Below are positions 15,229 through 35,315 of a stretch of DNA of 64,000 nt, in pieces (positions within the stretch are counted from its first letter, which is position 1; each line of letters opens with the position of its first letter). Location of the stretch: the NCBI RefSeq assembly GCF_009914755.1, contig NC_060938.1, one strand, 5' to 3'. The stretch comes from the human T2T-CHM13v2.0 reference genome, Homo sapiens. Made by a program: the position numbers and the translations under genes. A model generated the notes under the pieces. That model did not search any database. It was given only the letters and a program-made list of their open reading frames with translations, and had not been told where the DNA came from.

Positions 15229-15365
15229 GCCTATACACAAAAAAAGCCAGGAAGTCAACCGCACACCTCACAGAGGCAAGGAATAATCAGTTGTCTACAT
15301 GAGCAAGGGAGGAAGAAAGGGGAAAACAAAAGAAGGAAAAATTAGTTTGAATCTCAAAAAAAAAC

Positions 15366-15813
15366 TGTCAGGCCTCTGAGCCCAAGCCAAGCCATCGCAT
15401 CCCCTGTGACTTGCACGTATACGCCCAGATGGCCTGAAGTAACTGAAGAATCACAAAAGAAGTGAATATGCCCTGCCCCACCTTAACTGATGACATTCCA
15501 CCACAAAAGAAGTGTAAATGGCCGGTCCTTGCCTTAACTGATGACATTACCTTGTGAAAGTCCTTTTCCTGGCCCATCCTGGCTCAAAAAGCACCCCCAC
15601 TGAGCACCTTGCGACCCCCACTCCTGCCTGCCAGAGAACAAACCCCTTTGACTGTAATTTTCCTTTACCTACCCAAATCCTATAAAACGGCCCCACCCTT
15701 ATCTCCCTTCACTGACACTTTTCGGACTCAGCCTGCCTGCACCCAGGTGATTAAAAGCTTTATTGCTCACACAAAGCCTGTTTGGTGGTCTCTTCACATG
15801 GATGCGCATGAAA
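15366..15813 (+). promoter_or_regulatory. 5' LTR7 (LTR7up-like); TATA at 15681-15687, ATTAAA at 15750-15755
   Basis: TGTCAGGCCTCTGAGCCCAAG...GCGCATGAAA; two ACAAAAGA copies at 15453 and 15503. Confidence 0.93.
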
Positions 15814-16658
15814 TTTGGTGCGGTGACTCGGATCGGGGGACCTCCCTTGGGAGATCAATCCCCTGTCCTCCTGTTCTTTGCTCCGTGAGAAAGAGCCACC
15901 TACGACCTCAGGTCCTCAGACCAACCAGGCCAAGAAACATCTCACCAATTTCAAATCCGGTAAGCGGCCTCTTTTTACTCTCTTCTCCAACCTCCCTCAC
16001 TATCCCTCAACCTCTTTCTCCTTTCAATCTTGGCGCCACACTTCAATCTCTCCCTTCTCTTAATTTCAATTCCTTTCATCTTCTGGTAGAGACAAAGGAG
16101 ACATGTTTTATCCGTGGACCCAAAACTCCCACGCCCGTCATGGACTGGGAAGGCAGCCTTCCCTTGGTGTTTAATCCTTGCAGGGATGCCTTTCTGATTA
16201 TTCACCCATGTTTCAAAGGTGTCAGACCACGCAGGGACGCCTGCCTTTGTCCTTCACCCTTAGCGGCAAGTCCCACTTTTCTGGGGAAGGCGCAAGTACC
16301 CCAACCCCTTCTCTCCCTGTCTCTACCCCTTCTCTGCTTTTCTGGGGAAGGGGCAAGTACCCCTCAACCCCTTCTCTTTCACCCTGAGTGGCAAGTCCCG
16401 CTTTTCTACGGGGCAAGAACCCCCAATCCCTTATTTCCACGCCCCAACCTCTTATCTCTGTGCCCCAATCCCTTATTTCCGTGTCCCAACCTCTTATCTC
16501 TGCACCCCAATCCCTTATTTCCACGCCCCAACCTTGTATCTCTGTGCCCCAATCCCTTATTTCCACGCCCCAACCTCTTATATCTCTGCACCCCAATCCC
16601 TTATTTCCATGCCCTGACCTCTTATTTCTGCGCCCCATCCCTTATTTCTGCACCCTGA
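15798..16658 (+). CDS. Candidate 286-aa ESRG-like ORF in the HERV-H leader; translation unproven
   Basis: ATG in frame with the 15609..16658 ORF; the peptide (DAHEIWC.DSDRGTSLGRSIPCPP...LVETKETCFI...DWEGSLPLVFN) matches my recollection of the ESRG protein. Confidence 0.3.
   Translation: MDAHEIWCGDSDRGTSLGRSIPCPPVLCSVRKSHLRPQVLRPTRPRNISPISNPVSGLFLLSSPTSLTIPQPLSPFNLGATLQSLPSLNFNSFHLLVETKETCFIRGPKTPTPVMDWEGSLPLVFNPCRDAFLIIHPCFKGVRPRRDACLCPSPLAASPTFLGKAQVPQPLLSLSLPLLCFSGEGASTPQPLLFHPEWQVPLFYGARTPNPLFPRPNLLSLCPNPLFPCPNLLSLHPNPLFPRPNLVSLCPNPLFPRPNLLYLCTPIPYFHALTSYFCAPSLISAP
15816..15833 (+). other. Primer-binding site for tRNA-His
   Basis: TGGTGCGGTGACTCGGAT, 17/18 match to TGGTGCCGTGACTCGGAT, 2 nt after the LTR. 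Confidence 0.92.
15957..15965 (+). promoter_or_regulatory. HERV-H major splice donor CCG|GTAAGC
   Basis: Consensus-like 5' splice site ~145 nt after the 5' LTR, at the usual HERV-H position. Confidence 0.8.
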
Positions 16659-16685
16659 CCTCTTATCTCTGCGCCCCAACCCCTT
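16420..16685 (+). repeat. ~40-bp tandem repeat (alternating ~20-mers) in the HERV-H pre-gag region
   Basis: About six copies of CCCAATCCCTTATTTCCACGCCCCAACCTCTTATCTCTGTG-like units. Confidence 0.9.
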
Positions 16686-16771
16686 TCCCACTTTTCTGGA
16701 AGGTAAGAACCCCTGAACCCCTTCCCTCCATTTCTCTACTCTTTCTTTTCTCTAGGCTTGCTTCCTTCACT

Positions 16772-18030
16772 ATGGGCAATCTTCCACCCTCCATTCCTCC
16801 TTCTACTCCCTTGGCCTGTGTTCTCAAAAACTTAAAACCTCTTCAATTCACACCTGACCTAAAACCTAAATGCCTTATTTTCTTCTGCAATGCCGCTTGA
16901 CCCCAATACAAACTCGACAGTAGTTCCAAATAGCCAGAAAATGGCACTTTGAATTTTTCCATCCTGCAAGATCTAAATAATTCTTGTCGTAAAATAGGCA
17001 AACAGTCTTAGGTGCCTGACGTCCAGGCATTCTTTTACATATCAGTCCCTTCCTAGTCTCTGTGCCCAGTGCAACTCGTCCCAAATCTTCCTTCTTTCCC
17101 TCCCACCTGTCCCCTCAGTACCAACGCCAAGCGTTGCTGAGTCTTTCTAATCTTCCTTTTCTATAGACCCATATGACCTCTCCCTTCCTCCCCAGGCTGC
17201 TCCTCGCCAGGCCGAGCTAGTTCCCAATTCTTCCTCAGCCTCTCCTCCTCCACCCTATAATCTTTTTATCACCTCCCCTCCTCACACCTGGTCCGGCTTA
17301 CAGTTTCGTTCCGTGACTAGCCCTCCCCCTCCTGCCCAGCAACTTACTCTTAAAAATGTGGCTGGAGCCAAAGGCATAGTCAAGGTTAATGCTCCTTTTT
17401 CTTTATCCCAAATCGGATAGCGTTTAGGCTCTTTTTCATCAAATATAAAAATCCAGCCCAGTTCATGACTTGTTTGGCAGCAACCCTGAGACGCTTTACA
17501 GCCCTAGACCCTAAAAGGTCAAAAGGCCGTCTTATTCTCAAAATACATTTTATTACCCAATCTGCTCCCGATATTAAATAAAACTCCAAAAATTAAATTC
17601 CGGCCCTCAAACCCTACAACAGGATTTAATTAACCTCGCCTTCAAGGTGTACAATAATAGAAAAAAGTTGCAATTCCTTGCCTTCACTGTGAGACAAACC
17701 CCAGCCATGTCTCCAGCACACAAGAACTTCCAAACGCCTGAACCGCAGCGGCCAGGCGTTCCTCCAGAACCTCCTCCCCCAGGAGCTTGCTACACTTGCC
17801 GGAAATCTGGCCACTGGGCCAAGGAATGCCCGCAGCCCGGGATTCCTCCTAAGCCACGTCCTATCTGTGTGGGACCCCACTGAAAATCAGACTGTTCAAC
17901 TCACCTGGCAGCCACTCCCAGAGCCCCTGGAACTCTGGCCCAAGGCTCTCTGACTGACTCCTTCCCAGATCTTCTCGGCTTAGCGGCTGAAGACTGACAC
18001 TGCTCAATCACCTTGGAAGCCCCCTAGACC
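16772..18030 (+). pseudogene. gag: HERV-H gag remnant with one intact CCHC zinc knuckle
   Basis: MGNLPPSIPPS start; CYTCRKSGHWAKEC at 17788-17829; many stops and deletions. Confidence 0.85.
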
Positions 18031-20220
18031 ATCACGGACGCCGAGCTTCAGGTAACTCTCACAGTGGAAAGTAAGCCCATCCCCTTCTTAATCAATACAG
18101 AGGCTCCCCACTCCACATTACCTTCTTTTCAAGGGCCTGTTTCCCTTGCCTCCATAACTGTTGTAGGTATTGACGACCAGGCTTCTAAACCTCTTAAAAC
18201 TCCCCAACTCTGGTGCCAACTTAGACAATACTCTTTTAAGCACTCCTTTTTAGTTATCCCCACCTGCCCAGTTCCCTTATTAGGCTGAGACACTTTAACT
18301 AAATTATCTGCTTCCCTGATTATTCCTGGACTACAGCTATATCTCATTGCCGCCCTTCTTCCCAATCCAAAGCCTCCTTTGCGTCCTCCTCTTGTATCCC
18401 CCCACCTTAACCCACAAGTATAAGATACCTCTACTCCCTCCTTGGCGACCCATCATGCACCCCTTACCATCTCATTAAAACCTAATCACCCTTACCCCAC
18501 TCAATGCCAATATCCCATCCCACAGCACACTTTAAAAAGATTAAAGCCTGTTATCACTCACCTGCTACAGCATGGCCTTTTAAAGCCTATAAACTCTCCT
18601 TACAATTCCCCCATTTTACCTGTCCTAAAACCAGACAAGCCTTACAAGTTAGTTCAGGATCTGCGCCTTATCAACCAAATTGTTTTGCCTATCCACCCCG
18701 TGGTGCCAAACCCATATACTCTCCTATCCTCAATACCTGCCTCTACAACCCATTATTCTGTTCTAGATCTCAAACATGCTTTCTTTACTATTCCTTTGCA
18801 CCCTTAATCCCAGCCTCTCTTCACTTTCACTTGGCCTGACCCTGACACCCATCAAGCTCAGCAAATTACCTAGGCTGTACTGCCGCAAAGCTTCACAGAC
18901 AGCCCCCATTACTTCAATCAAGCCCAAATTTCTTCCTCATCTGTTACCTATCTCGGCATAATTCTCATAAAAAAACACGTGCTCTCCCTGCCAATCGTGT
19001 CCGACTGATCTCTCAAACCCCAACACCTTCTACAAAACAACTCCTTTCCTTCCTAGGCATGGTTAGTGCGGTCAGAATTCTTACAGAAGAGCCAGGACCG
19101 CACCCTGTAGCCTTTCTGTCCAAACAACTTGACCTTACTGTTTTAGCCTAGCCCTCATGTCTGCGTGCAGCAGCTGCCGCTGCTTTAATACTTTTAGAGG
19201 CCCTCAAAATCACAAAGTATGCTCAACTCACTCTCTACAGTTCTCATAACTTCCAAAATCTATCTTCTTCCTCATACCTGACGCATATACTTTCTGCTTC
19301 CCGGCTCCTTCAGCTATACTCACTCTTTATTGAGTCTCCCACAATTACCGTTGTTCCTGGCCTGGACTTCAATCCGGCCTCCCACATTATTCCTGATACC
19401 ACACCTGACCCCCATGACTGTATCTCTCTGATCCACCTGACATTCACACCATTTCCCCAAATTTCCTTCTTTCCTGTTCCTCACCCTGATCACGCTGGAT
19501 TTATTGATGGCCTAATCGCCACAAACCAGCAAAGGCAGGTTATGCTATAGTACAAGCCACTAGCCCGCCTCTTAGAACCTCTCATTTCCTTTCCATCGTG
19601 GAATTCTATCCTCAAGGAAATAACTTCTCAGTGTTCCATCTGCTATTCTACTCCTCAGGGATTATTCAGGCCCCCTCCCTTCCCTACACATCAAGCTCGA
19701 GGATTTGCCCCACCCAGGACTGGCAAATTAGCTTTACTCAACATGCCCTGAGTCAGATAACTAAAATACCTCTTAGTCTAGGTAGATACTTTCACTGGAT
19801 AGGTAGAGGCCTTTCCTACAGGGTCTGAGAAGGCCACCGCAGTCATTTCTTCCCTTCTGTCAGACATAATTCCTCAGTTTAGCCTTCCCACCTCAATACA
19901 GTCTGATAACAGACGAGCCTTTATTAGTCAAATGAGCCAAGCAGTTTTTCAGGCTCTTGGTATTCAGTGAAACCTTTATATCCCTTACGGTCCTCCGTCT
20001 TCAAGAAAAGTAGAATGGACTAAAGGTCTTTTAAAAACACACCTCACCAAGCTCAGCCACCAACTTAAAAAGGACTGGACAATACTTTTACCACTTTCCC
20101 TTCTCAGAATCCAGGCCTGTCCTCGGAATGCTACAGGGTACAGCCCATTTAAGCTCCTGTATAGACACTCCTTTTTATTAGGCCCCAGTCTCATTCCAGA
20201 CACCAGACCAACTTAGACTG
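18031..20220 (+). pseudogene. pol: HERV-H pro-pol remnant (protease, partial RT, RNase H, integrase)
   Basis: LINTEA (degenerate DTGA), SPYNSPILPV, LVQDLRLIN, YSVLDLKHAFFTIPL, integrase IQSDN; no YxDD seen, multiple stops. Confidence 0.9.
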
Positions 20221-20792
20221 TGCCCCCAAAAAACTTGTCATCCCTGCTATCTTCTGTCTAGTCATACTCCTATTCACCGTTCTCAACTACTCATACATGC
20301 CCTGCTCTTGTTTACACTGCCGGTTTACACTGTTTTTCCAAGCCATCACAGCTGATATCTCCTGGTGTTATCCCCAAACTGCCACTCTTAACTCTTGAAA
20401 TAAATAAATAATCTTTGCTGGCAGGACTATGCCGAATCTCCTTAGGCACTCTCTAATCAGATATCCTGAGTCGTCCCAATTCTTAGACCTTTTATACCTG
20501 TTTTTCTCCTTCTGTTATTCCATTTAGTTTCCCAATTCATCCAAAACCGTATCCAGGCCATCACCAATCATTCTATATGACAAATGTTTCTTATAACATC
20601 CCCACAATATCACCCCTTACCACAATACCTCCCTTCACCTTAATCTCTCCCACTCTAGGTTCCCACGCCGCCCCTAATCCCGCTTGAAGCAGCCCTGAGA
20701 AACATCGCCCATTCTCTCTCCATACCACCCCCCAAAAATTTTTGCCACCCCAACACTTCAATGCTATTTTGTTTTATTTTTCTTATTAATAT

Positions 20793-20805
20793 AAGAAGGC
20801 AGGAA
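20793..20805 (+). other. HERV-H polypurine tract
   Basis: AAGAAGGCAGGAA immediately 5' of the 3' LTR. Confidence 0.85.
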
Positions 20806-21256
20806 TGTCAGGCCTCTGAGCCCAAGCCAAGCCATCGCATCCCCTGTGACTTGCACGTATACGTCCAGATGGCCTGAAGTAATTGAAGAATCACAAAAGA
20901 AGTGAATATGCCCTGCCCCACCTTAACTGATGACATTCCACCACAAAAGAAGTGTAAATGGCTGGTCCTTGCCTTAAGTGATGACATTACCTTGTGAAAG
21001 TCCTTTTCCTGGCTCATCCTGGCTCAAAAAGCACCCCCACTGAGCACCTTGCGACCGCCACTCCTGCCCGCCAGAGAACAAACCCCCATTGACTATAATT
21101 TTCCTTTACCTACCCAAATCCTATAAAATGGCCCCACCCTTATCTCCCTTCGCTGACTCTCTTTTCGGACTCAGCCTGCCTGCACCCAGGTGATTAACAG
21201 CTTTATTGCTCACACAAAGCCTGTTTGGTGGTCTCTTCACACGGACGCGCATTAAA
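20806..21256 (+). mobile_element. 3' LTR7
   Basis: Direct repeat of the 5' LTR; by eye ~16 substitutions and 2 small indels. Confidence 0.95.
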
Positions 21257-23299
21257 AAAACATCCTTACATAATATGTTAAAGGATGCTATACAATATGA
21301 GGAAAATGATATAAGTATATGACCCAAGAGGATGAAAAAATTCACTTATTGGCAGAAAGGACAACATCATTTGTATGTAGAAAATCACCTCTCAAAATAG
21401 TAAGTTGCTGAAAGGGGAGTGGTTGCGCTAGAATTAGCACCAATGACTCTTTTATCCTATTTCTCAGTTTTAGGGGAAAAGACTCTACAAAACTACAGGT
21501 GTTTTGCTGACAGTAGAAAAAAACCTTCCCTTGTTAACATGTTAGTCAAGCTTTGGAAAAGACATCACATGTCAAATCCTATCACAGGATGCTTTATAGA
21601 GATTATCTATTTTAAATTTTATTGGAATTTCGATGACATCAAGTTGTTATTGCTTGGACCACAGTGGTGGTGGTTATCTGAAGATTTCTGCAAAAGTGCC
21701 ATGCCTCCTCAAATAAGGCAAGTCATCTAAAAAATATCCCTTATATGTATTTTTCATTTCTTTCATCATGTTACAGAGAATTTCAGTGGTATTCTAAGAC
21801 TCAGCCTCCCCAAGGAACCAAATCAAGCTTTTATGCATCAGTGGAAACCAGAAATTACTAACAGTATACACAGTGGCAATGGCCAGAGATTACTCTTTCA
21901 TCTGGTTCAACCCCTAGAGACACAAGGTCTCATCCTGTTCACACCCAAATCCCCCTCCTTCCCCAAACACACAGCCTCCACATGCATTCTCTGACAAGCC
22001 TGAGTAATATTTCATCAGTTCTCCCTAGCCACTCAGTCCAGGTTTTAATATAGCTGGAATATCTTGGGTAGCTTTATCAAGATGTAAACCTTATAATCAA
22101 GGCTTAGTTCAAAATTTAAGTTTTTCCAGCTGTCAACTGACATACAACTGTATAAAATCTGAAACTTTCCCTATCAAAGTTCTCAATGTTAAAATCTCCC
22201 CCTAGTGGATTTTCAGAGCATGTGTTTTCACAAGTAAAACTGAATAGAATTTTCAAAAAAAAAAAAAAAATGCTAAAAATTTCATATGTGTGAAAAATAA
22301 GACCTATTAATCTCAAAGTTCAGAGGGGAAAAAATGCAATTTCATTTAAAAGCTTGCCATCAAAAAAATTCTAAAACTAAAGTAGAATAGTTTTGGTTTA
22401 CTCTAGTCTTATGTGCAAGTGTGAATATTGAGTTTTACAAGTTTTTCTTGTGTGTCATTATCCTCTATTAAGTTAAGGCATTTTAATGGACTAAACATGG
22501 TAATTTCTTACTTAATTGTTTAGTGAAGAGAGGCATAATGTTTCAATTAGGAAAGAATGATCCCCCACATGAGTGAATCTGCCATCTGTGTATTCTCATC
22601 TGTTAAAACTGTTAGTCAAATCAACAAAAGTCCAAGTGCAAAGTCCCTAAACCAGTTGAAATGGGCACACACTTGCTCTAGGGAAGGGGAAATTTTATTT
22701 TAATTGATTTTGTTCCAGCAGCAATCCCTCTTCCTTTCCTGGGAATACATTTTGGCTGGGATTTTGTGGCATCAATACAAATCACTTCAAAGCAGCTATT
22801 GCTCATTTATCCTCTACCTAGCGGCTCTGCTGACCCACCACTTGGATATCCATTTTCCTGAGGTGGGGCAAAGATGAGGCATGACAAGACCACAGGAATG
22901 GTGTAGGAAAAAACTACAGAGAAATACTCATACAGAAGACAGCACAAAGCTGCCTGCAGTACTGATCGTCACATGTTTAGAACTGGGAAATGGTGGTCAG
23001 TTGTTAACAGAAAATGCATTTTCTTTGGTACCAAAATACCAATGGCTCATCAATCTTAATACTTTTATAATAACATTTTTTAAGGTTAAATTCTTTCAAA
23101 ACATGTCACTCCAAATTTCTGATGAGGTCTAGTTACTTTTAAATAATTAGGCAACATGAATAGAGGAGAAGACTGAGGCAATTATTGGATTCATTGAGGA
23201 ATGCATAAAACATAAAAATGACTTAAATTTGCTATTTATGTAATTTCGTGGTCTCAAAACCACACTTTAATTGAATCGAGTTTAGTAAGAGATAAGACC

Positions 23300-23515
23300 A
23301 CAGCAGTGTGGCATGATGTTTAAGAACACAGGCCTTAGGGTAGATTGTTAGAGTCAAATTCGAGCTCTGACTGTGTGACTTTGAGCCAGTTATTTAACCT
23401 CTCTGTGCCTTGGTTTCTTCATCTGCAAAATGAGAGTAGTAAATAGAAGCTTCCTCATAGTGTAGTTGGAAGGGTTAAATATGCTGAAACCGTAAATGGA
23501 AAGTACTTAGTACAC
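23300..23515 (+). mobile_element. MIR
   Basis: Core gtgtgactttgagccagttatttaacctctctgtgccttggtttcttcatctgcaaaatg. Confidence 0.8.
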
Positions 23516-26500
23516 ACAGATCCCACAGCTTTTTTTGTTCACTTTCAGACATTAACAGTCTTATTTTCAGACATTATTTTAAAAATCCTTTTTAAATTGA
23601 AACTTTCATTTCTCATTGAACTTAAATCTCTTTGTCCCTATACCAGCTCCAGCATGACCTATGCTTGGATCCTGTAGTAGGGAAGAGGGAAGTGGTTAAT
23701 TCTTTATCATGTCTTTGCAGTATTTTTTTACTCTACCTCCCTCACCCCTTTCTCTGTCTTTGGTTCCTGCAGGGGAGAGGGAAAATCATTTGGGGACAGC
23801 CAACTTCTTCCTTGAGCGGTGCAGTTATAATCATGCATTGTGCCCTCTGTGAGTGCTTCTTTCTCCTTTGAAATTCTTCAGTGGGTTCTTCAGCATCGCC
23901 CACTCTGTTGCTGGAGACCACCCATTGTGCCCTTGGATGGCGTGCCCAATATCCTTGGCCAGCTGGCTGCATTCCCCACTCAGCTACTGATTGTTGTGCT
24001 TCACGAACTTCCCGCTGAGCGTCCTCTCATCCTGGGGTGGAGAGCAGGCCCATCACGGGGCTCCCACCTGCCTGCCTGCCATACTGTCCATGCCAGTGCC
24101 TGAGAAACACCGCCTCTGCTCCACTTTCAGTGGGAACCAGCGTTTTGCACCCCCCTCCATAGCCTTTTCTCTTCACTCTACCACCTGAAGCAATTCCCAC
24201 TGGGCCGCTTGTTCACCTTTAAGTTTTCCAGGTAAGAATCAGACATCAGTCTCTGTGTCTTGTCAAATGTTCAGGGATACTACCAAGCTCTTTAAGTGGT
24301 CTTATAGAAGCCTCCACAGTTTACAGATGGGGTAAGCACCCACTTTCCATCTTTTGTGGGAAGAAAAATGCACAGCACTCTGAGAACTGTCTCTAAGGAA
24401 TTAATCACTATCAACTTCCTTTCTACTCTCATATATGGAGGTAGGCAATGGGCTAAGGGGGTGGACTAGCACCTCTCTTTAGAAAGTGGATACATTTCCC
24501 AATTGCAATCATCAGGTTGGGAGCCTGGGGCCTCACTGGAAATTGAGACAAAATAAAAGTTAAGTTCAACTTAGACTGTGCATATGTAACATTCAAACAT
24601 TTGGGTTATTTGAGTCAGTGAGTTCAGTGATTAGTATGAATCCTTACCATGTGGTAGACTAGATTGACTTCAGTATGACGTAGATAGGTGTGATTAATAA
24701 CTTAGAGTTATTTTAGCTGAGGGTGTGTCATGTACCAAAAACTGGTGAATGGAACATAGTTCACAGTGTTGAAATTATGGGACTCAACTGGATAGGCAGG
24801 AGGAAAAAGAAAGGGTAAGTATCATACACATAGAAACTGTCAGTATTTTTTAGACTGCAGAAGTGAATGTCAGACCTACTGTATTAAGCTCTTAAGCAAG
24901 GGACAAAACTGGATTTTTCAAGTCTGGGGCTAATTCAAAAACAGTGTTACATTGTAACCCATACCTCAGAAATTATTTTATAATAGCTAAATATTTACAT
25001 AGTGCTTACTATATGCCAGACACTGTTTTAAACACTTTTAATGTATTTAATCCTTTTAACAATTTTACAAGATAGATGCACTGTTACTTCCTTTTACAAA
25101 TGAGGAAAATGAAGCACAGAGGGATCAAACAACCAGCACAAGGTTAAAGTCATGGAAAATATGAGATGTAAGCCCTGATGTTTGGTATTAGACTACACTT
25201 TGCTTTCACAAACATTATCTTGTGATTTATGTCACAAATAAATCACATTATATAGCAATGATAAAGCAATTCCAAAAGATAGGCATATCAGACTCAAGCA
25301 TACTCAATGAATCACTTAGCTATGGGATGATAGGGGCTGCCTAGAAAATAATAGACTGTTGTAGCTCCTGTTCCAGTTCCTTCTACCACCTTCTGACGGG
25401 TATGTTTTGTTTGCCATTTAACTTACATCACAACATGTTAATTTCAAGAATAAATTTATTAGTGTTTTTCTAAAAGTAAAAATAATTGAGGAGAAAATAA
25501 ATCAGCAAATGTTATATTAAATAGAACAGACACTTACGGCCTGGAGTCTTTTCATTTTTAAGGTATAAAAAGCTTTTATTGCTTTTATCTTACTTAAAAA
25601 GCAATGCGTGCTTATGACTGAAGAATTAGAAAATCTCTGCAAAAGGGAGAAGAAAGCATTCACAACCCAACTACCTGATGATAACCACTGTTAATATCTT
25701 AGTAACTGTCCTTTCAAGCCTATGCATATATATGTTCATTTAATGTGTGTGTGTGTATTTACATCATTATTTATATAACATTTTTATTTTTGACTGGGGG
25801 AAGAGCAAAATTTTATTTTGGAATGAAAAAGGCCAACGGGGTAGTCAGAAAAGAATAAAGTGAGTGGTGTGGCATCCTCTCTCCATCTTCTTGGTGGCTT
25901 GGGTTATACATCTGTGCTTCAAGTTCTTCCAAAGGCCCAACTGTTTTGTTTGGTGTGCATGTTTGCTTACCTTGAAAGTTATCAATCAAGCTCAGAGTCC
26001 GTTAAATAAAATATAGCCTATCATCTATCTTCATTATGACCTGGAAAGACAGAGTCCAATTTAGACTCCTAGCCCTCTTCACAAGCTCTACCCTGGAACT
26101 TGCCCCCACCAGTAGCCTGTCCTACTTCAACTTCCATTCCTGGCTTTGTCCTGCCCAGTGAATAGGCTCATGTACATTAGGACAGATACCTGAACCCCTA
26201 TGGCCAAGCTCATTACTCATCTGCCACATCCTCTCCTAGTCACCTCTGAGCCTCTTCTTGGCCATGTATTTGGCTCACACTTCCCTGGAAGTGGGTTTGG
26301 AGCCTCTGGGCAGGGAGTCATGGAGTCTAGAAGATTGTGATCTAGCGTATGGGCTAGATGTGGCTTGCGGGCTCAGACTGGGCACTTGTTGGCTGCAGGA
26401 ACTCCTTCCCTTGCCGGGAAGGATGTGGCTAGAAGCGGGAAAGAACAGGATCTTCATGTATTCTCTATATGAGGTGCTGATCAAAATAAATAATTATTTA

Positions 26501-27993
26501 CACCTAGAGATGTTCTCTAAATTATGACTGTAGAAAGTAGGTAAGTTAAAATTGGGAATGTGTAGCTTTAGCATGCCAACACCTACATCTGCAGAATCCC
26601 CATGGTTTATGTGCGCTGTTGCCTTTGACTGGAACAACCTTCATCAGACATGTGCCCTTTTACTTTCACCTTATTCATAACTGCTCAAACATCTTCTTTC
26701 CTTCCCTTTCCATCTAATCTATACCAAGTGCACCCACCCCTCCAGCACTCTGTATCCTCTCACCCCCACTTATCTTCTTAGAACTTATCACGAAATGAAA
26801 TTACAGTACCTGTACTTGTTTACTGTCTTTCTGCCCTACTAGAATTCCACAGAAAATTAATCTAATTTGTCATTATATCTATTGTGCCTAGAACAGTGCC
26901 TGCCACCCAGTGGGCATTCCCTAAGTATTTGCTAAATTACTAAGTTACAATTAAAAACACACATTACTCATACATAGTGGAATTCTGATATTAATTTCCA
27001 CTTCCTTTTAACTAAGAAATGGGGCAAATAACTGGAAATAAATCTTTTCTACTGCAGTCTGAATTTTACTTCCATAAAATAAAACACATACAAATAATTT
27101 TTTAAAATTAGGATATAATATCAGAAACCACTGCATTGGCTAATGGCATAAGCAGCGAAATCTTGGCTCAACCAAACAGTCAACAAAGAAGGAGTGTAGG
27201 CCAGGTGTCCCCACCTAGGCTATGCTATCTTCTTACTTCCTTCTTCTGGCAGGAAAGGAGATGTCAGGCTGTAGGAAAGTAGTAGCACGGGCTACTTCCT
27301 CAAGGACTAAGTAAAGTAGCATTCCATGCTGTGGGCAAAAGGAGACAGGGGCAGGGCCAGGTGCTGGTGAGGAGAGGCAGTCCACTCTCAAGAGGGGACA
27401 GTGAGGTGAGGATCCAGGACCTCTTTCCGGACCACTCCTGGTAGTTCTGAGTTCCAGTCTGACAGCTCACAGACACAGCCCCCCATTTTGCCTCCAGCAG
27501 GAGAAGACAAGGAGATGGAGAGACTGTCAACCTAGAACCAGTAATGACCAGTTCCAACTTAATTACAGAAAGGGAGAAAAGATCAATCATTTAAGTTGCT
27601 TCATCGTCTAAATAAAAGTGTTTTGGCTGTTGAAACATGAACCTAGACTCCTGCCTCAACATATTTAAAATGAGAACAAAGTGGCAGTATCATGGTGGTG
27701 GGCGTTTAGATGCTTACATTGTTTTCATCTACAAAACAGGCTTTCCTTTCACACCCTAGCTCTTTGCTGGGCTGGTGGAGCTGATTGACAGATATAGCCC
27801 GCTCCAAAGGAACAGCCCTTTCTCAAGGAATGAATGATTTGCTCTAAGTATTTAAATCCTCTGCTCAAAATCAAACATAAATTGAAGTATCAAAATAAAC
27901 AAAAATATGGTTTGTGGTTTTGAAAGCATTTCTTTGTGATTTTTGCTAAAAAGAGAAATGCCAAAAAAATTTTTTTAAAGATTTTGAGACAAT

Positions 27994-28296
27994 TATCTGG
28001 CGCAGTGGCTCACGCCTGTAATCCCAGCACTTTGGGAGGCTGAGGCAGGCAGATCATGAGGTCAGGAGATCAAGACCATCCTGGCCAACATGTTGAAACC
28101 CCATCTCTACTAAAAATATAAAAATTAGCTGGGCATGATGGGCGCCTGTAATCCCAGCTACTCAGGAGGCAGAGGCAAGATAATCACTTGAATCCAGGAG
28201 GTGGGGGTTGCAATGAGCCAAGATCATGCCACTGCACTCCAACCTGGGCAACAGAGTAAGATTCGTTCTCAAAAAAAAAAAAAAAAAGAAAAGAAA
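27994..28296 (+). mobile_element. AluS (Sc-like)
   Basis: Dimeric Alu; TSD AAAGATTT(T/C)GAGACAAT. Confidence 0.95.
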
Positions 28297-30225
28297 AAAG
28301 ATTTCGAGACAATAGTTTTAAACTAATGCATCCATCTTAAAATCCTTAACTAACAGACTTTATTACAGAAAAATGTATTACTGATAAGGACTATTCAAAA
28401 TAATACAGATAACATGAATGTGCTCCTGTTCTGCTTTTATGTTTCCATTATTTGTAATGAATACTTTCCTGTATGTGCTGAATTCTTGTTTTTAGAAATA
28501 TTATTTTGTAGTAGAGAAAACATAGGGAAGAATAGGAGTTGTTACACCATATGGGTCTTTGCTAAAAGCACAAAAAAAGACTCTGTCATGCTGTTCACAG
28601 AAGAGGCAATAGGAAAATCAGTGGGCCAGGGTGAGTTTGCTGAGGTTGGTGATGAACTAAACCACAGGCTACCAAGGCTGCTGTGATTGGGTATTCCTGA
28701 GAAATGAAGTCCAGGATTGTTTCTTAGCCCTATAGCCACATTTGTGCTCTGGTAACTTTCTCGTTAGACTGACATCATGTTAACTGCTTAGTGGCAGATA
28801 GTCCTTAAGTGACACAACCTTTGCTGTAGGCCATATTGCTGAGTGGTGTTAGCCCCTTATACTCAATTTGGTCCCATCTGTCCAGACAGGTGTTTGTAAA
28901 CCTGACACTGATTCTGCTGCTGCAGACAATGTTCCAGGAAGTGTACCCTTTAATCCCTGGCTCCAGCCAGCCCTTTATCATTGGTATGAATTAGAGATGC
29001 TCATTTAAGGATCAACACAGGCTCTGATTGGAAAAACCACATTAGTAATGATTTTGACATAAGCAGAAGTTGAGGTGCTGATAATTACTATTCCACCAAA
29101 CGAACTGAGGCTCAAAACTGCTATTAAAAGGAAATGATCTTCCATGTATGATGACTTTCACACTGCATGACACTATTAAATAACCATCATTAGCTACTAA
29201 TGCATGTACTACCCATTTTCCAGAGCCCTTTCTCTGCTGAGAAATTTAAGACCAAGAATGATCAATGAATGAGTCATCAGTATGACAATTGTTGATATAG
29301 GACATGCAAATTGAAATTATTTAGAATAATTTAAGTGTATAAGGAATTAATACACATGATGATATTCCTCAGCTAGTAAAGCTCTACTTGTAAGGAGCTC
29401 ACAGTTTATTTCTTTGCATCTACATTTTATAATCTAGAAAAGAGGAAAGTACTATCCATGGGATGCCTTGACAAAATAAAACAAGGTGATTTGGGGCAAT
29501 TTTGTAGGTACTGCACTAGATGCTGGGGATAGAAAAATAAATAAAATGCAAGCCCCTGGTCTCCACAAGCTTACAAATTTATAAGAGGGTACAGACAAGT
29601 ACACAAAAAGCCACAGTACAGTGTGATAAATATAATAATCAAAGTGTGCACCTGGTACATGATAGCACAGGAGAGTATAGCTTGTAGGAGAAAGTTACAG
29701 TGAGGGAAGAAAATCAGTCTGCTTAAGAATCTGCAACTTCCTAAATTGGAACATTTCATTTTCCCCTTTCTGGAAAACATCTCCTTCTTTTCTATCTATA
29801 AATGTTCATATCACAGAGGCATAGGAAAGATGGTAACCAAAGAGGGCTGGAGGACAGGTAACTTGTAGGGAGAAAACAAGCTCTTCCTAATCTTTTCAAG
29901 GTTTTAGACATGTGAACCTAAAAAGTTTTTAACAAGACAAGAAGATTGTTGAGTCCTGACTATTCACTGGCTGCGTTTTTTGCAAATTAAAGTGATCTCA
30001 TGCCCATATCAGTTTTCCTTTTTCTTTGGAAATATTTACATTAAATTGAGATCTGAGGGGAAGATAGCGCTCTAACTGGGATCCTGCTTTTAATATAATT
30101 TGAAAATAGCTGCAACCCCAATCCACCTTCCTGGTGGCCCAGAAATGCCACCCTTTTTGTTTGTTTGTTTGTTTTTGTTGTTCATAGATTAGTTCACAAA
30201 TACAATAATTAGAAATACATGACTG

Positions 30226-30536
<311 letters not shown>

Positions 30537-30623
30537 TTAAAAATAAACACATAACTGAAAAGATTTAATAATGCTGCATAGCTTATATCCATCTCAATCC
30601 CTCTCTTTGTCTTTCTCTCATGC

Positions 30624-31368
30624 TTTTTAAAATTGAAGTAAAACTCCCATAATATAAAATTTATAATTTTAGTCATTTTTGAAGTGTACAATTCAGGGAT
30701 TTTTAGCATATTCACAATGTTATGCAATCATCACCACTATCTAATTCCAGAACATTTTCACCACTCAAAAAAGAAAGCTCATACCCATTAAGCAGTCCTT
30801 CCTCTTTCCCCTCTGCCCCCAGCCCCTGGCAACCACTAACGTACCTTGTCTGTATGTATTGCCTGCCCTGGGCATGTCATATAAATGGAATCATGCCACA
30901 CGTGGCCTTTTGTGTCTGGCTTCTTTCCCTTTGCATAGTGTTTTCAAGCTTCGTCTACGCTGAAGCAGGTATTAGTACTTCATTTCTTTTTATGGTTGAA
31001 TACTATTCCATTGTATGGATATACCACAATTTATTAATTCAGCAATTGATGGATATTTGGATTGTTTCTAATTTTTGGCTATTATGAATAGTGCTGCTAT
31101 GAATGTTCATGCACAAGTTTTTGATTAAACACCTGTTTTCAATTTTGAGGAGTAAATAGAAGTGGAATTGCTGGCTCATATGGTCATTCTTTTAAACTTT
31201 TAAACTTTTTAAGCAATTGCCAAAATTTTTTTCTGAAGTTGCTGCATCATTTTTTATTCCCACCAGCAATGTATGAGTGTTCTAATTTCTCCACATTCTC
31301 ACTAACGTTTATTTTTTGTTTTTAAAAATGTTCTTATAGCCATCCTAGTGGGTGAAAAGTGGCATCTC
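30624..31368 (-). mobile_element. L1MB-like 3' end
   Basis: Reverse L1M 3' UTR/ORF2 end (tattccattgtatggatataccacaattt; cccaccagcaatgtatgag). Confidence 0.8.
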
Positions 31369-32697
31369 AAAAAAATAAAAATAAAAGGCATTCTCACGTC
31401 AGGTCTTAAGTTTTCTTCTTTTGTATATGAGGCCACAAAATTGAGAGAAATTTTCCCTAAGATGAGCTGAAAGTGAATTTAATGAAATTCTGAACAACAG
31501 AGCTGTTTTTCACTGACTCCCATCACACACTTCCCAAAGAGCAACCATGATCAAAGCCAAGGCATCTAAATAATGACTGTTGAAATCCAAGCTCCCAGAG
31601 GTACAGATAGTCAGGTGTCTTTAGTCAGTGATTGGCAGAGGCATCTAAGGCATTATATGAGGCTTGGCTAGTAAAATGCTCTTCTGGGATTCTGGGACAA
31701 TACCCACTCTCTTTTCTTTTAACTTAATGAACATTTATTTTCTCTCCATATGTGCTGTATTTGTAAAGGAAAAATAAATATAACTAAACACCAATTGTAC
31801 ATTCCACTTTAAAGAAGGCAATTTGTTCAGGTAAAATAATGGGTTAAAACAGTTTCAGCCGTATGAAATTTCAAATTCCATCCTAGCACATTCCTCATTA
31901 ATAATTGCACACATTCCTATGAAAGTCTGTCATTTATTTTAGTCTTTGATTGCTATCATCAACACACTACAGAAGTTATTCTTTCCTGTTCAAGACAATT
32001 AGTTTTGGGAACTAAAACACATGCAGTATATGTAAGTGATTACCTGGATAAAGCAACAGGGCATTAGGAAATATACTTTTTTGTTTTTAATTTCTGCATC
32101 CATTTCTTCATTCTGGACCGGTACAGATAGCCTCCATGAGGAGTTTAGCCTCTCCTTGGAGTAAACTCTACTGAGAGGAGGAAAACTGAGACTTACAGTA
32201 CAGCGGGCACAGCCTGGTTGAGGAGAAGGAGAAACTAAGGAAAAACTGGAGACAGCAAAGCTTGAAGGAGGCAGAGCACTAAGCTGCTGCGGGTCACTCT
32301 TCCTGTGAACAGGCTAGTTTCAAATAAAGGCTTGCAGGGATCTTACCGAGCAAAGCAACGTTTATGAAAAGGAACAGGGAAGTTGCATGGAGTGTGATTC
32401 TTCCTTCCACAGGAACAGTTGGAAAGCCAAAGAGACCCTAGAGTAAGAATGGTGGTAAGTCCCAGGGTTCGTTTAAAATCCTGATAACGGAACATACATT
32501 CTTTCTTACGGGAAAACCGTTTTGATTCTTAAATGAAGTCAGTGAGCTTCAGGCTTGCCTACATTGATATCTCCTAATGGTTTGGGCACGTGACCCAGAG
32601 CCAGCTCACAAATCAAGCCTCAGAAAGAGCTGACATCCTAGCTCTTCCCGGAAAAACTCGAATGTCGCCCTGCCGTTCCTGGGGTTGGTGACAGGTC

Positions 32698-32803
32698 TGG
32701 TCATCGCACGGCGGCAGCTCCTCACCTGGATTTAGAAGAGCTGGCGTCCCCGCCCGCCCAAGCCTTTAAACTCTCGTCTGCCAGAACCCGCCAACTCTCC
32801 AGG
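32698..32803 (+). other. SSTR1: SSTR1 non-coding exon 1 (TSS approximate)
   Basis: Donor AGG|GTACAA at 32803/32804; agrees with my recollection of the mRNA junction. Confidence 0.6.
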
Positions 32804-33141
32804 GTACAAAGTACAGCAGGGACGCGGGTGGAGCCCTTCCAAGCGGCGCAGCCTTATCTTTCCCGAGTGAACACCTAGGTGGATTCCCAACACCGCGCCT
32901 GGCACGTTTCTGGAGGGAGTCTCAAGCTCCTCCAGAGCTCCCAGCTGCGCGTCCTCGTTTCTGCAGTCGATATTCCTGTGGGAGACACGGGGGGCTCTGA
33001 GCGCTACGAGCTTTATTAAGAGATTTGCGAATGGTTCACTCAGGTCCCTGAACACTCCCAATAGCCTAAGCTGCCTGCTGTGTTATAGCGCAGAAGCCCC
33101 TAACGCACGGTGGTTGTCCTTTCTTCTCATAACGCTCGCAG

Positions 33142-33308
33142 CTTAGGGCCAGTTTCCGCGATTCTAAGAGTAATTGCGTGGGCACCTGTGCTGGGGCCAG
33201 GCGCAAAGAAGGGAGTTGGTCTGCGCGAAGATCGTCAACCTGCTAACAGACCGCACATGCACTTTGCACCGACCATCTACGTCTCAGTCTGGAGGTTGCG
33301 CACTTTGG
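33142..33308 (+). other. SSTR1: SSTR1 non-coding exon 2
   Basis: Pyrimidine tract plus CAG| acceptor at 33141; donor TGG|GTAAGG at 33308/33309; next acceptor CCCCTTTTTTCGTAG| at 33744. Confidence 0.7.
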
Positions 33309-34088
33309 GTAAGGAGGGCCCGGAACTTCCCTGGCGGGTCTGAGCTGCAAGGCAAGCGAGGGTGGGAAGAGGGAATTTAGGGTTCTGGACTGCGGGACGG
33401 GAGAGAAGCTGGGGTCTCCAGAGAAAAGGGCAGCAATGGAGGGAAACTGAGATGAACTCCAGACATCCATGTTCATGGATCCGTTTGAGTCTTTGCTTTG
33501 GGTAGGAGAGGAGTGGAATGAGACAGAATCTATACCTTTGGTTCCCACCCGCCCTCCAGTAAGGCCGAGGAACTCTCTTGGTTCCTCTGAGAGCAAGAGG
33601 CAGATGGTGCTGCGAGGGAACCCCGGAAGGAGCCACTAAAGTTGAGCAGAGTGCAGGACTGGGAAGGAAAAAAATGGGGGGCGGGGGGGACAAGCCACCT
33701 ATGTGCTCTCCTCCCTTTCTCCACCCCACCCCCTTTTTTCGTAGCTGCTGACGCGCTGGTGGTGCCTATTAATCATTTACCAGTCCAGAGCCGCGCCAGT
33801 TAATGGCTGTGCCGTGCGGTGCTCCCACATCCTGGCCTCTCCTCTCCACGGTCGCCTGTGCCCGGGCACCCCGGAGCTGCAAACTGCAGAGCCCAGGCAA
33901 CCGCTGGGCTGTGCGCCCCGCCGGCGCCGGTAGGAGCCGCGCTCCCCGCAGCGGTTGCGCTCTACCCGGAGGCGCTGGGCGGCTGTGGGCTGCAGGCAAG
34001 CGGTCGGGTGGGGAGGGAGGGCGCAGGCGGCGGGTGCGCGAGGAGAAAGCCCCAGCCCTGGCAGCCCCACTGGCCCCCCTCAGCTGGG

Positions 34089-35264
34089 ATGTTCCCCAAT
34101 GGCACCGCCTCCTCTCCTTCCTCCTCTCCTAGCCCCAGCCCGGGCAGCTGCGGCGAAGGCGGCGGCAGCAGGGGCCCCGGGGCCGGCGCTGCGGACGGCA
34201 TGGAGGAGCCAGGGCGAAATGCGTCCCAGAACGGGACCTTGAGCGAGGGCCAGGGCAGCGCCATCCTGATCTCTTTCATCTACTCCGTGGTGTGCCTGGT
34301 GGGGCTGTGTGGGAACTCTATGGTCATCTACGTGATCCTGCGCTATGCCAAGATGAAGACGGCCACCAACATCTACATCCTAAATCTGGCCATTGCTGAT
34401 GAGCTGCTCATGCTCAGCGTGCCCTTCCTAGTCACCTCCACGTTGTTGCGCCACTGGCCCTTCGGTGCGCTGCTCTGCCGCCTCGTGCTCAGCGTGGACG
34501 CGGTCAACATGTTCACCAGCATCTACTGTCTGACTGTGCTCAGCGTGGACCGCTACGTGGCCGTGGTGCATCCCATCAAGGCGGCCCGCTACCGCCGGCC
34601 CACCGTGGCCAAGGTAGTAAACCTGGGCGTGTGGGTGCTATCGCTGCTCGTCATCCTGCCCATCGTGGTCTTCTCTCGCACCGCGGCCAACAGCGACGGC
34701 ACGGTGGCTTGCAACATGCTCATGCCAGAGCCCGCTCAACGCTGGCTGGTGGGCTTCGTGTTGTACACATTTCTCATGGGCTTCCTGCTGCCCGTGGGGG
34801 CTATCTGCCTGTGCTACGTGCTCATCATTGCTAAGATGCGCATGGTGGCCCTCAAGGCCGGCTGGCAGCAGCGCAAGCGCTCGGAGCGCAAGATCACCTT
34901 AATGGTGATGATGGTGGTGATGGTGTTTGTCATCTGCTGGATGCCTTTCTACGTGGTGCAGCTGGTTAACGTGTTTGCTGAGCAGGACGACACCACGGTG
35001 AGTCAGCTGTCGGTCATCCTCGGCTATGCCAACAGCTGCGCCAACCCCATCCTCTATGGCTTTCTCTCAGACAACTTCAAGCGCTCTTTCCAACGCATCC
35101 TATGCCTCAGCTGGATGGACAACGCCGCGGAGGAGCCGGTTGACTATTACGCCACCGCGCTCAAGAGCCGTGCCTACAGTGTGGAAGACTTCCAACCTGA
35201 GAACCTGGAGTCCGGCGGCGTCTTCCGTAATGGCACCTGCACGTCCCGGATCACGACGCTCTGA
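34089..35264 (+). CDS. SSTR1: Somatostatin receptor type 1, 391-aa class A GPCR, intronless CDS
   Basis: [12 protein letters not shown]... N-terminus, seven hydrophobic segments, GN, LAIAD, DRY, CWMP, SSTR signature [12 protein letters not shown]-terminal ITTL PDZ ligand; real ATG is at 34089 (track start at 33819 is a GTG). Confidence 0.99.
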
Positions 35265-35315
35265 GCCCGGGCCACGCAGGGGCTCTGAGCCCGGGCCACG
35301 CAGGGGCCCTGAGCC
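35259..35315 (+). repeat. 24-bp tandem repeat across the SSTR1 stop codon
   Basis: CTCTGAGCCCGGGCCACGCAGGGG x2 plus a partial CCCTGAGCC. Confidence 0.95.

What the first reader, a model, noticed from the sequence alone, without database searches (positions are those of the whole stretch)
15366..34089. HERV-H positioned as a possible alternative promoter splicing into SSTR1
Seen: the provirus is on the same strand as SSTR1 and ends ~11.4 kb upstream of exon 1. It has an intact TATA and major donor CCG|GTAAGC (15959/60). SSTR1 has two acceptors (33142, 33745) upstream of an uninterrupted CDS, so a splice would keep the whole receptor ORF. Knowledge: LTR7/HERV-H copies are known to drive chimeric transcripts into neighbouring genes in pluripotent and cancer cells. 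Inference: a route to SSTR1 expression that bypasses the CpG-island promoter. Caveat: by my frame count the LTR AUG (54 codons to the donor) stops before the SSTR1 AUG at either acceptor, so it would act as a uORF, not a fusion.
Basis: partly seen in the sequence, partly recalled or inferred. Interest (0 to 1): 0.7.

Follow-up and report, generated by a model that had tools for sequence, protein, structure and literature searches.

The report
Active HERV-H provirus upstream of SSTR1
A catalogued, stem-cell-active HERV-H retrovirus remnant lies 11 kb upstream of the somatostatin receptor 1 gene in the right orientation to splice into it, but the published data that scored this copy found no such splicing, so it is most likely an ordinary self-contained noncoding unit.

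Summary
The provirus is a 5,891-bp, coding-dead HERV-H (15366-21256, + strand). It has two LTR7 LTRs, an AAAAC target-site duplication, a TATA box, a primer-binding site and the leader donor CCG|GTAAGC at 15959/60. It lies 11,346 bp upstream of SSTR1 exon 1 on the same strand. The acceptors at 33142 and 33745, the uninterrupted 391-codon CDS and the uORF frame count all check out.

The copy is already catalogued. Carter et al. 2022 list it (hg38 chr14:38190638-38196525) as LTR7up2. In H1 hESC they score it highly transcribed, top-septile GRO-seq, bound by NANOG, KLF4, SOX2, FOXA1 and MED1, and positive for H3K4me3 and H3K27ac. They also score it "Chimeric Transcript = 0".

Only 2 of 56 LTR7up2 loci are scored chimeric. 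The RefSeq table supplied with the finding has no LTR-initiated SSTR1 model. SSTR1 is about 1-2 TPM in HUES8 hESC. No paper in the library names SSTR1 together with HERVH, HERV-H or LTR7.

The best reading is an autonomous HERVH noncoding transcription unit. A rare or context-specific LTR7-SSTR1 isoform is not excluded, because no raw reads could be examined. Interest is low.

The parts
15361..15365 (+). 5' copy of the target-site duplication, AAAAC
   Evidence: Identical to 21257-21261.
15366..15813 (+). 5' LTR (LTR7, subfamily 7up2 in Carter 2022). Contains a 50-bp U3 duplication with two AAAAGAAG motifs (15455, 15505), TATAAAA at 15681-15687 and ATTAAA at 15750-15755.
   Evidence: Subfamily and activity calls come from Carter 2022 supplementary files 1, 2 and 6.
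15798..15959 (+). Copy-specific uATG plus 54 codons running in phase 0 to the donor. This would be the first uORF of any LTR-initiated spliced RNA.
   Evidence: The ATG arose by CpG-to-TpG change relative to the 3' LTR.
15814..15833 (+). Primer-binding site TTTGGTGCGGTGACTCGGAT. That it is tRNA-His-like is recalled, not tested here.
15957..15965 (+). Leader (major) splice donor CCG|GTAAGC. The exon ends at 15959.
   Evidence: It matches 7 of 9 positions of the consensus CAG|GTRAGT.
16421..16685 (+). Array of 42-bp (21-bp half-unit) tandem repeats in the leader/pre-gag region.
17390..18807 (+). Broken gag-pro-pol remnants: Gag_p30 fragment 17390-17581, zinc knuckle 17578-17883, protease 18028-18288, start of RT 18424-18807. 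No env match.
   Evidence: Pfam scan of 16 stop-to-stop + strand frames. The longest stop-free + strand frame lying wholly inside the internal region is 170 aa.
20806..21256 (+). 3' LTR. TATAAAA at 21122-21128. The R-region hexamer is changed to ATTAAC (21193-21198) and a new ATTAAA sits at 21251-21256.
21257..21261 (+). 3' copy of the target-site duplication, AAAAC
23773..23848 (+). Candidate 76-nt cassette exon downstream of the provirus (…TTCCTGCAG|G … TCT|GTGAGT). Use is unproven.
32603..32803 (+). SSTR1 exon 1, the native CpG-island promoter exon, with donor AGG|GTACAA.
   Evidence: Annotation given with the finding; sequence; donor matches 5 of 9.
33142..33308 (+). SSTR1 exon 2, non-coding. 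Its acceptor is the first candidate target of the LTR donor.
   Evidence: 15 of 20 pyrimidines in positions -23 to -4.
33745..35264 (+). SSTR1 exon 3 from its acceptor to the end of the CDS. ATG at 34089, 391 codons uninterrupted.
   Evidence: 17 of 20 pyrimidines at the acceptor.

Best explanation
This is an already catalogued LTR7up2-HERVH provirus of the common deleted form, about 5.9 kb, with gag-pro-pol fragments and no env. In primed human pluripotent cells its 5' LTR works as a pluripotency-factor-driven promoter. It produces a self-contained noncoding HERVH RNA that starts about 25-30 nt downstream of the TATA box (near 15710). That RNA is either left unspliced or spliced from the 15959 donor to acceptors in or near the provirus, and it ends in or soon after the 3' LTR. 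SSTR1 is transcribed from its own CpG-island promoter and receives no appreciable input from the LTR.

Shown: the structure, and the published activity and non-chimeric calls for this exact copy. Inferred: where the HERVH RNA ends and how it is spliced.
For: Identity of the copy:
- Carter 2022 (PMC8912925) supplementary files 1 and 2 list chr14:38190638-38196525 (+), full length, 5,813 bp by their count, as 7up2.
- The sequence printed under that header in supplementary file 6 reads like window 15367 onward. The match includes four positions where the two LTRs of this provirus differ (15424, 15443, 15523, 15538).

Activity in H1, from the same row:
- Scored 1: RNA, top-septile GRO-seq, NANOG, KLF4, SOX2, FOXA1, MED1, ZNF534, H3K4me3, H3K27ac.
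- Scored 0: KAP1, H3K9me3.
- 'RNA' means fpkm >2 in the Wang 2014 H1 data.
- A second table lists the locus as HERVH-int_374, hg19 chr14:38659843-38665730, with expression 48.2 in control hPSC and 'No change' in TRIM28 knockout (Mob DNA 2025 review PMC12228294, supplementary file 1, row 61).
- Both LTRs carry two copies of AAAAGAAG, the 8-bp motif that Carter 2022 showed to be required for 7up promoter activity.

Against chimerism:
- 'Chimeric Transcript' is 0 for this row.
- Among all 56 7up2 rows, 20 have RNA = 1, 12 have top GRO, 10 have both (this locus included), and only 2 are chimeric, of which 1 is among the 20 with RNA = 1.
- SSTR1 is 1.06-2.23 TPM in 10 HUES8 hESC samples and 0.47-0.89 in 4 ffEPSC samples (PMC9122532 Table S6).
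- SSTR1 does not occur in the readable supplements of three transcript studies.

Sequence obstacles:
- A crude scan finds 30 acceptor-like sites between the donor and the SSTR1 ATG. Sixteen are inside the provirus and 12 lie between it and exon 1. The exon 2 acceptor falls below the cut-off used.
- 19 AATAAA and 7 ATTAAA hexamers lie between the 3' LTR and exon 1.

From the Zhang et al. preprint (10.1101/485961, passages): around boundary-forming HERV-Hs, only genes 5' of the element are up in hESC. SSTR1 lies 3' of this one.
Against: - No raw RNA-seq junctions, CAGE or long reads could be examined, so absence rests on other people's calls. The 'chimeric' flag comes from one short-read H1 data set with an unknown detection limit.
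- The low but non-zero SSTR1 signal in hESC could itself be partly LTR-derived.
- HUES8 activity of this particular HERVH copy was not seen in any table.
- The 3' LTR has lost its R-region ATTAAA (now ATTAAC), which could favour read-through beyond the provirus. A new ATTAAA sits 55 nt further on, however.
- The review PMC12228294 states that HERVH chimeras typically join the HERVH 5' part to exon 2 of a same-strand neighbour. That is exactly this geometry.
- Supplements that might list this locus could not be read: Babarinde 2021, file 5 of Carter 2022, file 1 of Attig 2019, the extended data tables of the Zhang preprint, and the Wang 2014 tables.
Confidence: 0.7

Rival explanations
1. In some cell state (naive or primed epiblast, germ-cell or HERVH-high tumours) the 5' LTR acts as an alternative SSTR1 promoter. 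Transcripts start near 15710 and splice from 15959 to 33142 (17,182-nt intron) or to 33745 (17,785-nt intron). They encode the full 391-aa receptor behind a longer 5' UTR richer in uORFs.
For: - The promoter is active in hESC.
- Donor, acceptors, strand and intact CDS are all in place.
- Intron lengths are ordinary.
- Splicing would bypass the 26 poly(A) hexamers in between.
- The review PMC12228294 describes just this HERVH-to-exon-2 pattern.
- Precedents keep the whole CDS: THE1B-CSF1R from 6 kb upstream and LOR1a-IRF5 into exon 2 (PMC5134097).
- HERV-H precedents are PLA2L and CALB (PMC9343867 table).
- SSTR1 is detectable at 1-2 TPM in hESC.
Against: - This locus is scored non-chimeric in H1. 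The base rate is 2 of 56 7up2 loci.
- The supplied RefSeq table has no such model.
- There were 0 papers for SSTR1 with HERVH, LTR7 or HERV-H, and none relevant among 6 for 'endogenous retrovirus' or 3 for 'LTR' plus 'transposable'.
- Many competing acceptors lie upstream of a weakish exon 2 acceptor.
- The chimeric leader would carry 5 uATGs (via exon 2) or 4 (direct to exon 3), against 3 in the native leader. Even if made, it should translate poorly.
Confidence: 0.13
2. The provirus influences SSTR1 without splicing into it. It could act as a pluripotent-cell enhancer. Alternatively, it could act as a transcription-dependent domain boundary whose 3' side insulates SSTR1 from upstream activity. 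A third route is read-through transcription interfering with the CpG-island promoter.
For: - The locus carries H3K27ac, MED1 and pluripotency factors and lies in the top GRO-seq septile.
- The hub's annotation places RefSeq 'enhancer' features over both LTRs (14454-16433, 20392-21379).
- The Zhang preprint reports that highly transcribed HERV-Hs form hPSC-specific boundaries and that only 5'-side genes are up in hESC.
- The 3' LTR hexamer change to ATTAAC might allow some read-through.
Against: - Whether this copy is one of the roughly 50 boundary HERV-Hs is unknown. The journal paper is not held and preprint supplements are closed.
- No perturbation of LTR7 with an SSTR1 read-out was found. 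The CRISPRi in PMC9122532 targets LTR5_Hs and MER57E3, not LTR7.
- SSTR1 is low in hESC either way.
Confidence: 0.2

Closest known systems
LTR7up-driven HERVH noncoding RNA loci of human pluripotent cells (for example linc-ROR, initiated in the 5' LTR7 of a full-length HERVH)
   Same: It is a full-length element with two LTR7s and has been assigned to subfamily 7up2. It has the AAAAGAAG (SOX2/3) motif, NANOG, KLF4 and SOX2 occupancy, H3K4me3 and H3K27ac, and RNA and GRO-seq signal in H1.
   Different: The annotation supplied has no named lncRNA here. No function for its RNA is reported in anything I could read.
LTR alternative promoters that preserve the host CDS: THE1B-CSF1R and LOR1a-IRF5 (Babaian and Mager 2016, PMC5134097, passages)
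   Same: An upstream same-strand LTR with its own donor sits several kb 5' of a gene whose start codon lies behind an acceptor. A splice would give the full protein with a new 5' UTR.
   Different: Those chimeras were observed as transcripts. Here none is recorded, and the one data set that scored this locus says non-chimeric.
HERV-H/RTVL-H chimeras with neighbouring genes: PLA2L in teratocarcinoma and CALB in prostate carcinoma (listed in a table of PMC9343867), and SCGB3A2 and LINC00458 in hESC (Zhang preprint)
   Same: Same retroviral family, and the same idea of an LTR promoter plus splicing to downstream exons.
   Different: Membership needs an observed junction, which is lacking. That the family leader donor is the one used in the PLA2L case is recalled, not checked here.
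Transcriptionally active HERV-H elements as hPSC-specific TAD boundaries (Zhang et al., preprint 10.1101/485961, passages)
   Same: It is highly transcribed in hESC and lies in the top GRO-seq septile. The gene of interest lies on the 3' side.
   Different: Boundary status of this copy is unknown, because no Hi-C data or locus list was accessible.

Membership tests
HERV-H (LTR7-HERVH) provirus | Two near-identical direct LTRs bounding an internal region, flanked by a short target-site duplication | tested here: met
   LTRs at 15366-15813 and 20806-21256 differ at 16 of 448 aligned positions plus 3 gap columns. AAAAC flanks both sides.
HERV-H (LTR7-HERVH) provirus | Primer-binding site immediately after the 5' LTR, and a leader splice donor | tested here: met
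   TTTGGTGCGGTGACTCGGAT at 15814 and CCG|GTAAGC at 15959/60. That the site matches tRNA-His is recalled, not computed.
HERV-H (LTR7-HERVH) provirus | Gammaretrovirus-like gag-pro-pol remnants in the sense orientation | tested here: met
   Gag_p30 (E 6e-4, below the Pfam cut-off), zf-CCHC (E 3e-7), RVP (E 9e-5) and RVT_1 (E 1.4e-3, below the cut-off), in that order on the + strand. Five of the 16 frames scanned had these hits and no env was found.
LTR7up subfamily (Carter et al. 2022) | 8-bp AAAAGAAG insertion giving a SOX2/3 motif in block 2b | tested here: met
   Two copies in each LTR (15455, 15505; 20895, 20945) within a 50-bp duplication. The motif is as printed in the paper. [quoted passage not shown]
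LTR7up subfamily (Carter et al. 2022) | Phylogenetic placement in the 7up1/7up2 clade | not tested
   Taken from the authors' tables (7up2 / LTR7up2 for this coordinate). I built no tree.
LTR-initiated chimeric gene transcript (alternative promoter) | LTR promoter active in some cell type | tested here: met
   Published binary calls for this copy in H1: RNA 1, GRO top septile 1, H3K4me3 1. Expression is 48.2 in a second hPSC table.
LTR-initiated chimeric gene transcript (alternative promoter) | Same-strand donor in the element and a gene acceptor upstream of an intact CDS | tested here: met
LTR-initiated chimeric gene transcript (alternative promoter) | An observed transcript or junction joining LTR and gene | tested here: inconclusive
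   The published H1 flag is 0. The supplied RefSeq table has no such model. SSTR1 is absent from the readable supplements of three studies.
HERV-H TAD boundary | Hi-C insulation at the element in hPSC that depends on its transcription | not testable with these tools
   No Hi-C data or locus list was available.

The most novel reading that the evidence does not exclude
In a cell state not covered by the H1 call (naive epiblast-like cells, germ-cell tumours or HERVH-high carcinomas), the LTR7up2 promoter splices 15959 to SSTR1 exon 2 or 3. It may pass through the candidate 76-nt exon 23773-23848. This would put a full-length somatostatin receptor under pluripotency-factor control, independent of its CpG-island promoter. 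The copy-specific uATG at 15798 would act as a translational brake.
Probability: 0.12. Interest if true: 0.45.

Novelty: already known. Interest (0 to 1): 0.2.

Why it matters
If the LTR did feed SSTR1, a drug-targetable and imaging-targetable peptide receptor would have a hominoid-specific, pluripotency-linked promoter. That could explain expression in cells where the CpG island is silent. It would add one more protein-coding case to a short list of HERVH exaptations.

As the evidence stands, the locus is one of a few dozen catalogued, highly transcribed LTR7up-HERVH units. Its proximity to SSTR1 is a permissive geometry, not a demonstrated link. The useful outcome here is that a well-made sequence-only hypothesis can be set against existing locus-level tables and given a low prior, about 1 in 20 by the 7up2 base rate.

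Tried and rejected
Literature searches:
- SSTR1 with HERVH, with LTR7 and with HERV-H: 0 papers each.
- 'HERVH_14q21.1', a guessed locus name: 0 papers.
- SSTR1 with 'endogenous retrovirus': 6 papers hold both terms and 5 were listed. None concerned this locus judging by titles and abstract starts. I opened only PMC9568515, where the two terms are unrelated.
- SSTR1 with LTR and transposable: 3 papers, 2 on a fish genome and 1 a psychiatry review.

Supplements searched for SSTR1, all without a hit:
- Torre 2023: 8 files, 158,904 characters.
- NSMB 2026 TE-chimera atlas: 4 files, about 4.03 million characters.
- Attig 2019: 7 files, 55,363 characters, file 1 not searched.
These files may not hold full transcript lists, so the blanks are weak evidence.

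Not readable or not available:
- The Babarinde 2021 supplement was too large to read.
- Zhang 2019 in Nature Genetics and one further DOI were not held. Only the Zhang preprint text was read.

Other checks:
- The CRISPRi data in PMC9122532 turned out to target LTR5_Hs and MER57E3, not LTR7. Only its SSTR1 TPM values were used.
- An Rfam scan of 14000-38000 gave 0 matches at gathering score.
- A fusion protein of LTR and SSTR1 is rejected.
- My splice-site scoring is a crude consensus and pyrimidine count of my own, not MaxEnt. It ranks nothing reliably.
- My first LTR comparison took the 3' LTR two bases too long. One search is the corrected count.


Full report
**1. What is in the sequence**

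Window 15366-21256 (+) is a complete provirus of 5,891 bp.
- The 5' LTR (15366-15813, 448 nt) and the 3' LTR (20806-21256, 451 nt) begin with TGTCAGG. They differ by 16 substitutions (10 transitions, 6 transversions) and 3 gap columns over 448 aligned positions. That is 3.6% raw and 0.037 by Kimura 2-parameter.
- The 5-bp AAAAC flanks both ends (15361-65 and 21257-61). The two LTRs therefore belong to a single integration.
- With assumed substitution rates of 1.0-2.2e-9 per site per year, the divergence corresponds to about 8-18 My. The rates are my assumption.
- The 5' LTR has TATAAAA at 15681-87 and ATTAAA at 15750-55. It is followed by a primer-binding site at 15814 and by the donor CCG|GTAAGC, with the exon ending at 15959.
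- The inside is coding-dead. Of 16 stop-to-stop + strand frames scanned against Pfam, five had retroviral matches, in the order Gag_p30 fragment, zinc knuckle (two models on one frame), protease, start of reverse transcriptase. No env was found.
- The longest stop-free + strand frame lying wholly inside the internal region is 170 aa.
- This is the common deleted HERV-H form.

**2.

All of them hold.
- The provirus ends 11,346 bp before SSTR1 exon 1, on the same strand.
- The acceptors read ...CGCAG|C at 33142 and ...TTTTTTCGTAG|C at 33745.
- The CDS 34089-35264 is 391 codons without interruption.
- From ATG 15798 there are 54 codons to the donor. Joined to 33142 the frame stops after 88 codons in all, and joined to 33745 after 116. 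Both stops fall before the SSTR1 ATG.
- That AUG is private to this 5' LTR. The 3' LTR reads CACGGACG where the 5' LTR reads CATGGATG.
- A chimeric leader would carry 5 upstream ATGs (via exon 2) or 4 (direct to exon 3). The native SSTR1 leader already has 3, one of them opening a 109-codon frame that overlaps the start of the CDS.
- Windows from 32500 to 36249 have G+C 0.54-0.72 and CpG observed/expected 0.41-0.78.

**3. This copy is already catalogued**

Carter et al. 2022 (eLife, PMC8912925) was read as passages plus rows of supplementary files 1, 2 and 6. File 5 could not be searched.
- The paper lists hg38 chr14:38190638-38196525 (+) as a full-length LTR7up2 element.
- The sequence printed under that header matches window 15367 onward. 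The match includes four positions at which this provirus's own two LTRs differ, so the identification is by sequence and not only by coordinate.
- The row reads: RNA 1, top-septile GRO-seq 1, Chimeric Transcript 0, KAP1 0, NANOG 1, OCT4 0, MED1 1, KLF4 1, FOXA1 1, FOXP1 0, SOX2 1, ZNF534 1, H3K4me3 1, H3K9me3 0, H3K27ac 1.
- According to the methods, 'RNA' means fpkm >2. 'Chimeric' is the set of chimeric HERVH from H1 RNA-seq of Wang et al. 2014, intersected with LTR7.
- The paper also shows by reporter assay that an 8-bp motif, AAAAGAAG, is needed for 7up promoter activity in iPSC. Each LTR here has two copies inside a 50-bp duplication.
- A second table lists the locus as HERVH-int_374, hg19 chr14:38659843-38665730, with expression 48.2 in control and 27.9 in TRIM28-knockout hPSC, classed 'No change' (supplementary file 1 of the Mob DNA 2025 review PMC12228294; one row and passages seen).

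**4. The splice into SSTR1**

This is where support ends.
- The only data set that scored the question gives 0 for this locus.
- I counted all 56 rows labelled 7up2. Twenty have RNA = 1, 12 are in the top GRO septile, and 10 have both (this locus among them). Two are chimeric, one of which is among the 20 transcribed. For this subfamily, chimerism is the exception.
- The RefSeq table supplied with the finding has two SSTR1 transcripts. Neither starts upstream of 32603. It has no gene at the provirus.
- Gene-level SSTR1 expression would include any chimera, because exon 3 holds the whole CDS and 3' UTR. It is 1.06-2.23 TPM in 10 HUES8 hESC samples and 0.47-0.89 TPM in 4 ffEPSC samples (Table S6 of PMC9122532; one row and passages seen). 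Whatever the LTR contributes in that line is therefore small. I did not see whether this HERVH copy is active in HUES8.
- Searches of the paper library for SSTR1 with HERVH, LTR7 or HERV-H gave 0 papers each. Wider term pairs gave nothing pertinent.
- SSTR1 does not occur in the readable supplements of an embryo long-read study, a TE-chimera atlas and a cancer LTR-transcript assembly. Those files may be incomplete lists.

**5. What the sequence says about likelihood**

- By a crude count of my own, the donor matches 7 of 9 consensus positions. Eleven other sites between 15700 and 33142 match 8 of 9.
- Between the donor and the SSTR1 ATG, 30 sites pass a simple acceptor filter (YAG, at least 16 of 20 pyrimidines, no nearby AG). 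Sixteen are inside the provirus, 12 are between it and exon 1, and 2 are in SSTR1.
- The exon 2 acceptor has 15 of 20 pyrimidines and fails the filter. The exon 3 acceptor has 17 of 20 and passes.
- Unspliced read-through would meet 19 AATAAA and 7 ATTAAA hexamers before exon 1. Only a 17.2-17.8 kb splice could connect the two. That length is ordinary, so the route is open but faces much competition.
- One feature leans the other way. The 3' LTR's R-region hexamer is ATTAAC instead of ATTAAA, although a G-to-T change has made a new ATTAAA at the very end of that LTR.
A GTGAGT follows it 76 nt later, so 23773-23848 has the form of a cassette exon. Whether it is ever used is unknown.

**6. Most likely mechanism and rivals**

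- Best reading (0.7): the element is a self-contained pluripotent-cell transcription unit driven by its 5' LTR and makes noncoding HERVH RNA. SSTR1 runs from its own promoter.
- Rival 2 (0.2; not exclusive of the best reading): action at a distance as enhancer, boundary or by interference.
- For rival 2, the Zhang et al. preprint (passages) reports that highly transcribed HERV-Hs form hPSC-specific domain boundaries and that only genes on the 5' side are up in hESC. That would place SSTR1 on the insulated side. Whether this copy is one of those boundaries could not be learned.

**7. Comparison with known systems**

- In structure and published activity this is a member of the LTR7up-HERVH class (linc-ROR is the textbook full-length example; PMC5134097).
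It also resembles the HERV-H chimeras PLA2L and CALB (table in PMC9343867) and SCGB3A2.
- Membership in that class needs an observed junction, which is missing.
- The review PMC12228294 (passages) says HERVH chimeras typically join to exon 2 of a same-strand neighbour. The hypothesis is therefore orthodox rather than novel.

**8. Verdict**

- Observation: confirmed.
- Interpretation: partly supported. The geometry and the promoter hold, but the link to SSTR1 does not.
- Novelty: already known as an element. At most it would be a new member of a known kind if the chimera were found.
- Interest: 0.2.

Recalled and not checked by any search: the tRNA-His assignment of the primer-binding site, the 5-bp duplication being typical of HERV-H, ATTAAA being the family's poly(A) signal, and the TSS lying 25-30 nt after the TATA box.

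Noticed in passing
window 21193-21198 and 21251-21256: The 3' LTR has ATTAAC where the 5' LTR has the R-region hexamer ATTAAA. A G-to-T change at the last bases of the same LTR creates a new ATTAAA 55 nt downstream. This might shift or weaken 3' end formation of the proviral RNA.
   Followed up: partly
window 23773-23848: An exon-shaped 76-nt segment 2.5 kb downstream of the provirus, with a pyrimidine-rich CAG acceptor and a TCT|GTGAGT donor. It lies inside RefSeq 'enhancer' features (23554-24548) and may be an exon of an unannotated HERVH-driven RNA.
   Followed up: partly
window 15798-16658: In unspliced RNA the copy-specific ATG 15798 opens a 286-codon stop-free frame. It runs through the donor and the CT-rich 42-bp repeat array. 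The product is proline/leucine/serine-rich and of low complexity, so it is probably a compositional accident.
   Followed up: partly
window 15744-15752 and 21187-21195: Both LTRs hold a donor-like CAG|GTGATT (8 of 9 consensus positions) in the R region, overlapping the poly(A) hexamer. In the 3' LTR it could give a very short first exon for transcripts heading downstream.
   Followed up: no
window 33745-34415 (SSTR1 exon 3 leader): The native SSTR1 5' UTR carries three uATGs. The one at about 33804 opens a 109-codon frame that overlaps the start of the receptor CDS in another frame, so SSTR1 translation may already be uORF-limited.
   Followed up: no
window 16421-16685: A tandem array of 6.3 copies of a 42-bp unit (two 21-bp half-units) in the proviral leader/pre-gag region.
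   Followed up: partly
whole window: AAAAGAAG occurs 18 times against 8.0 expected (0 of 100 shuffles reach 18). Four of the 18 are in the two LTRs and one lies just upstream of the 5' LTR at 15328.
   Followed up: no
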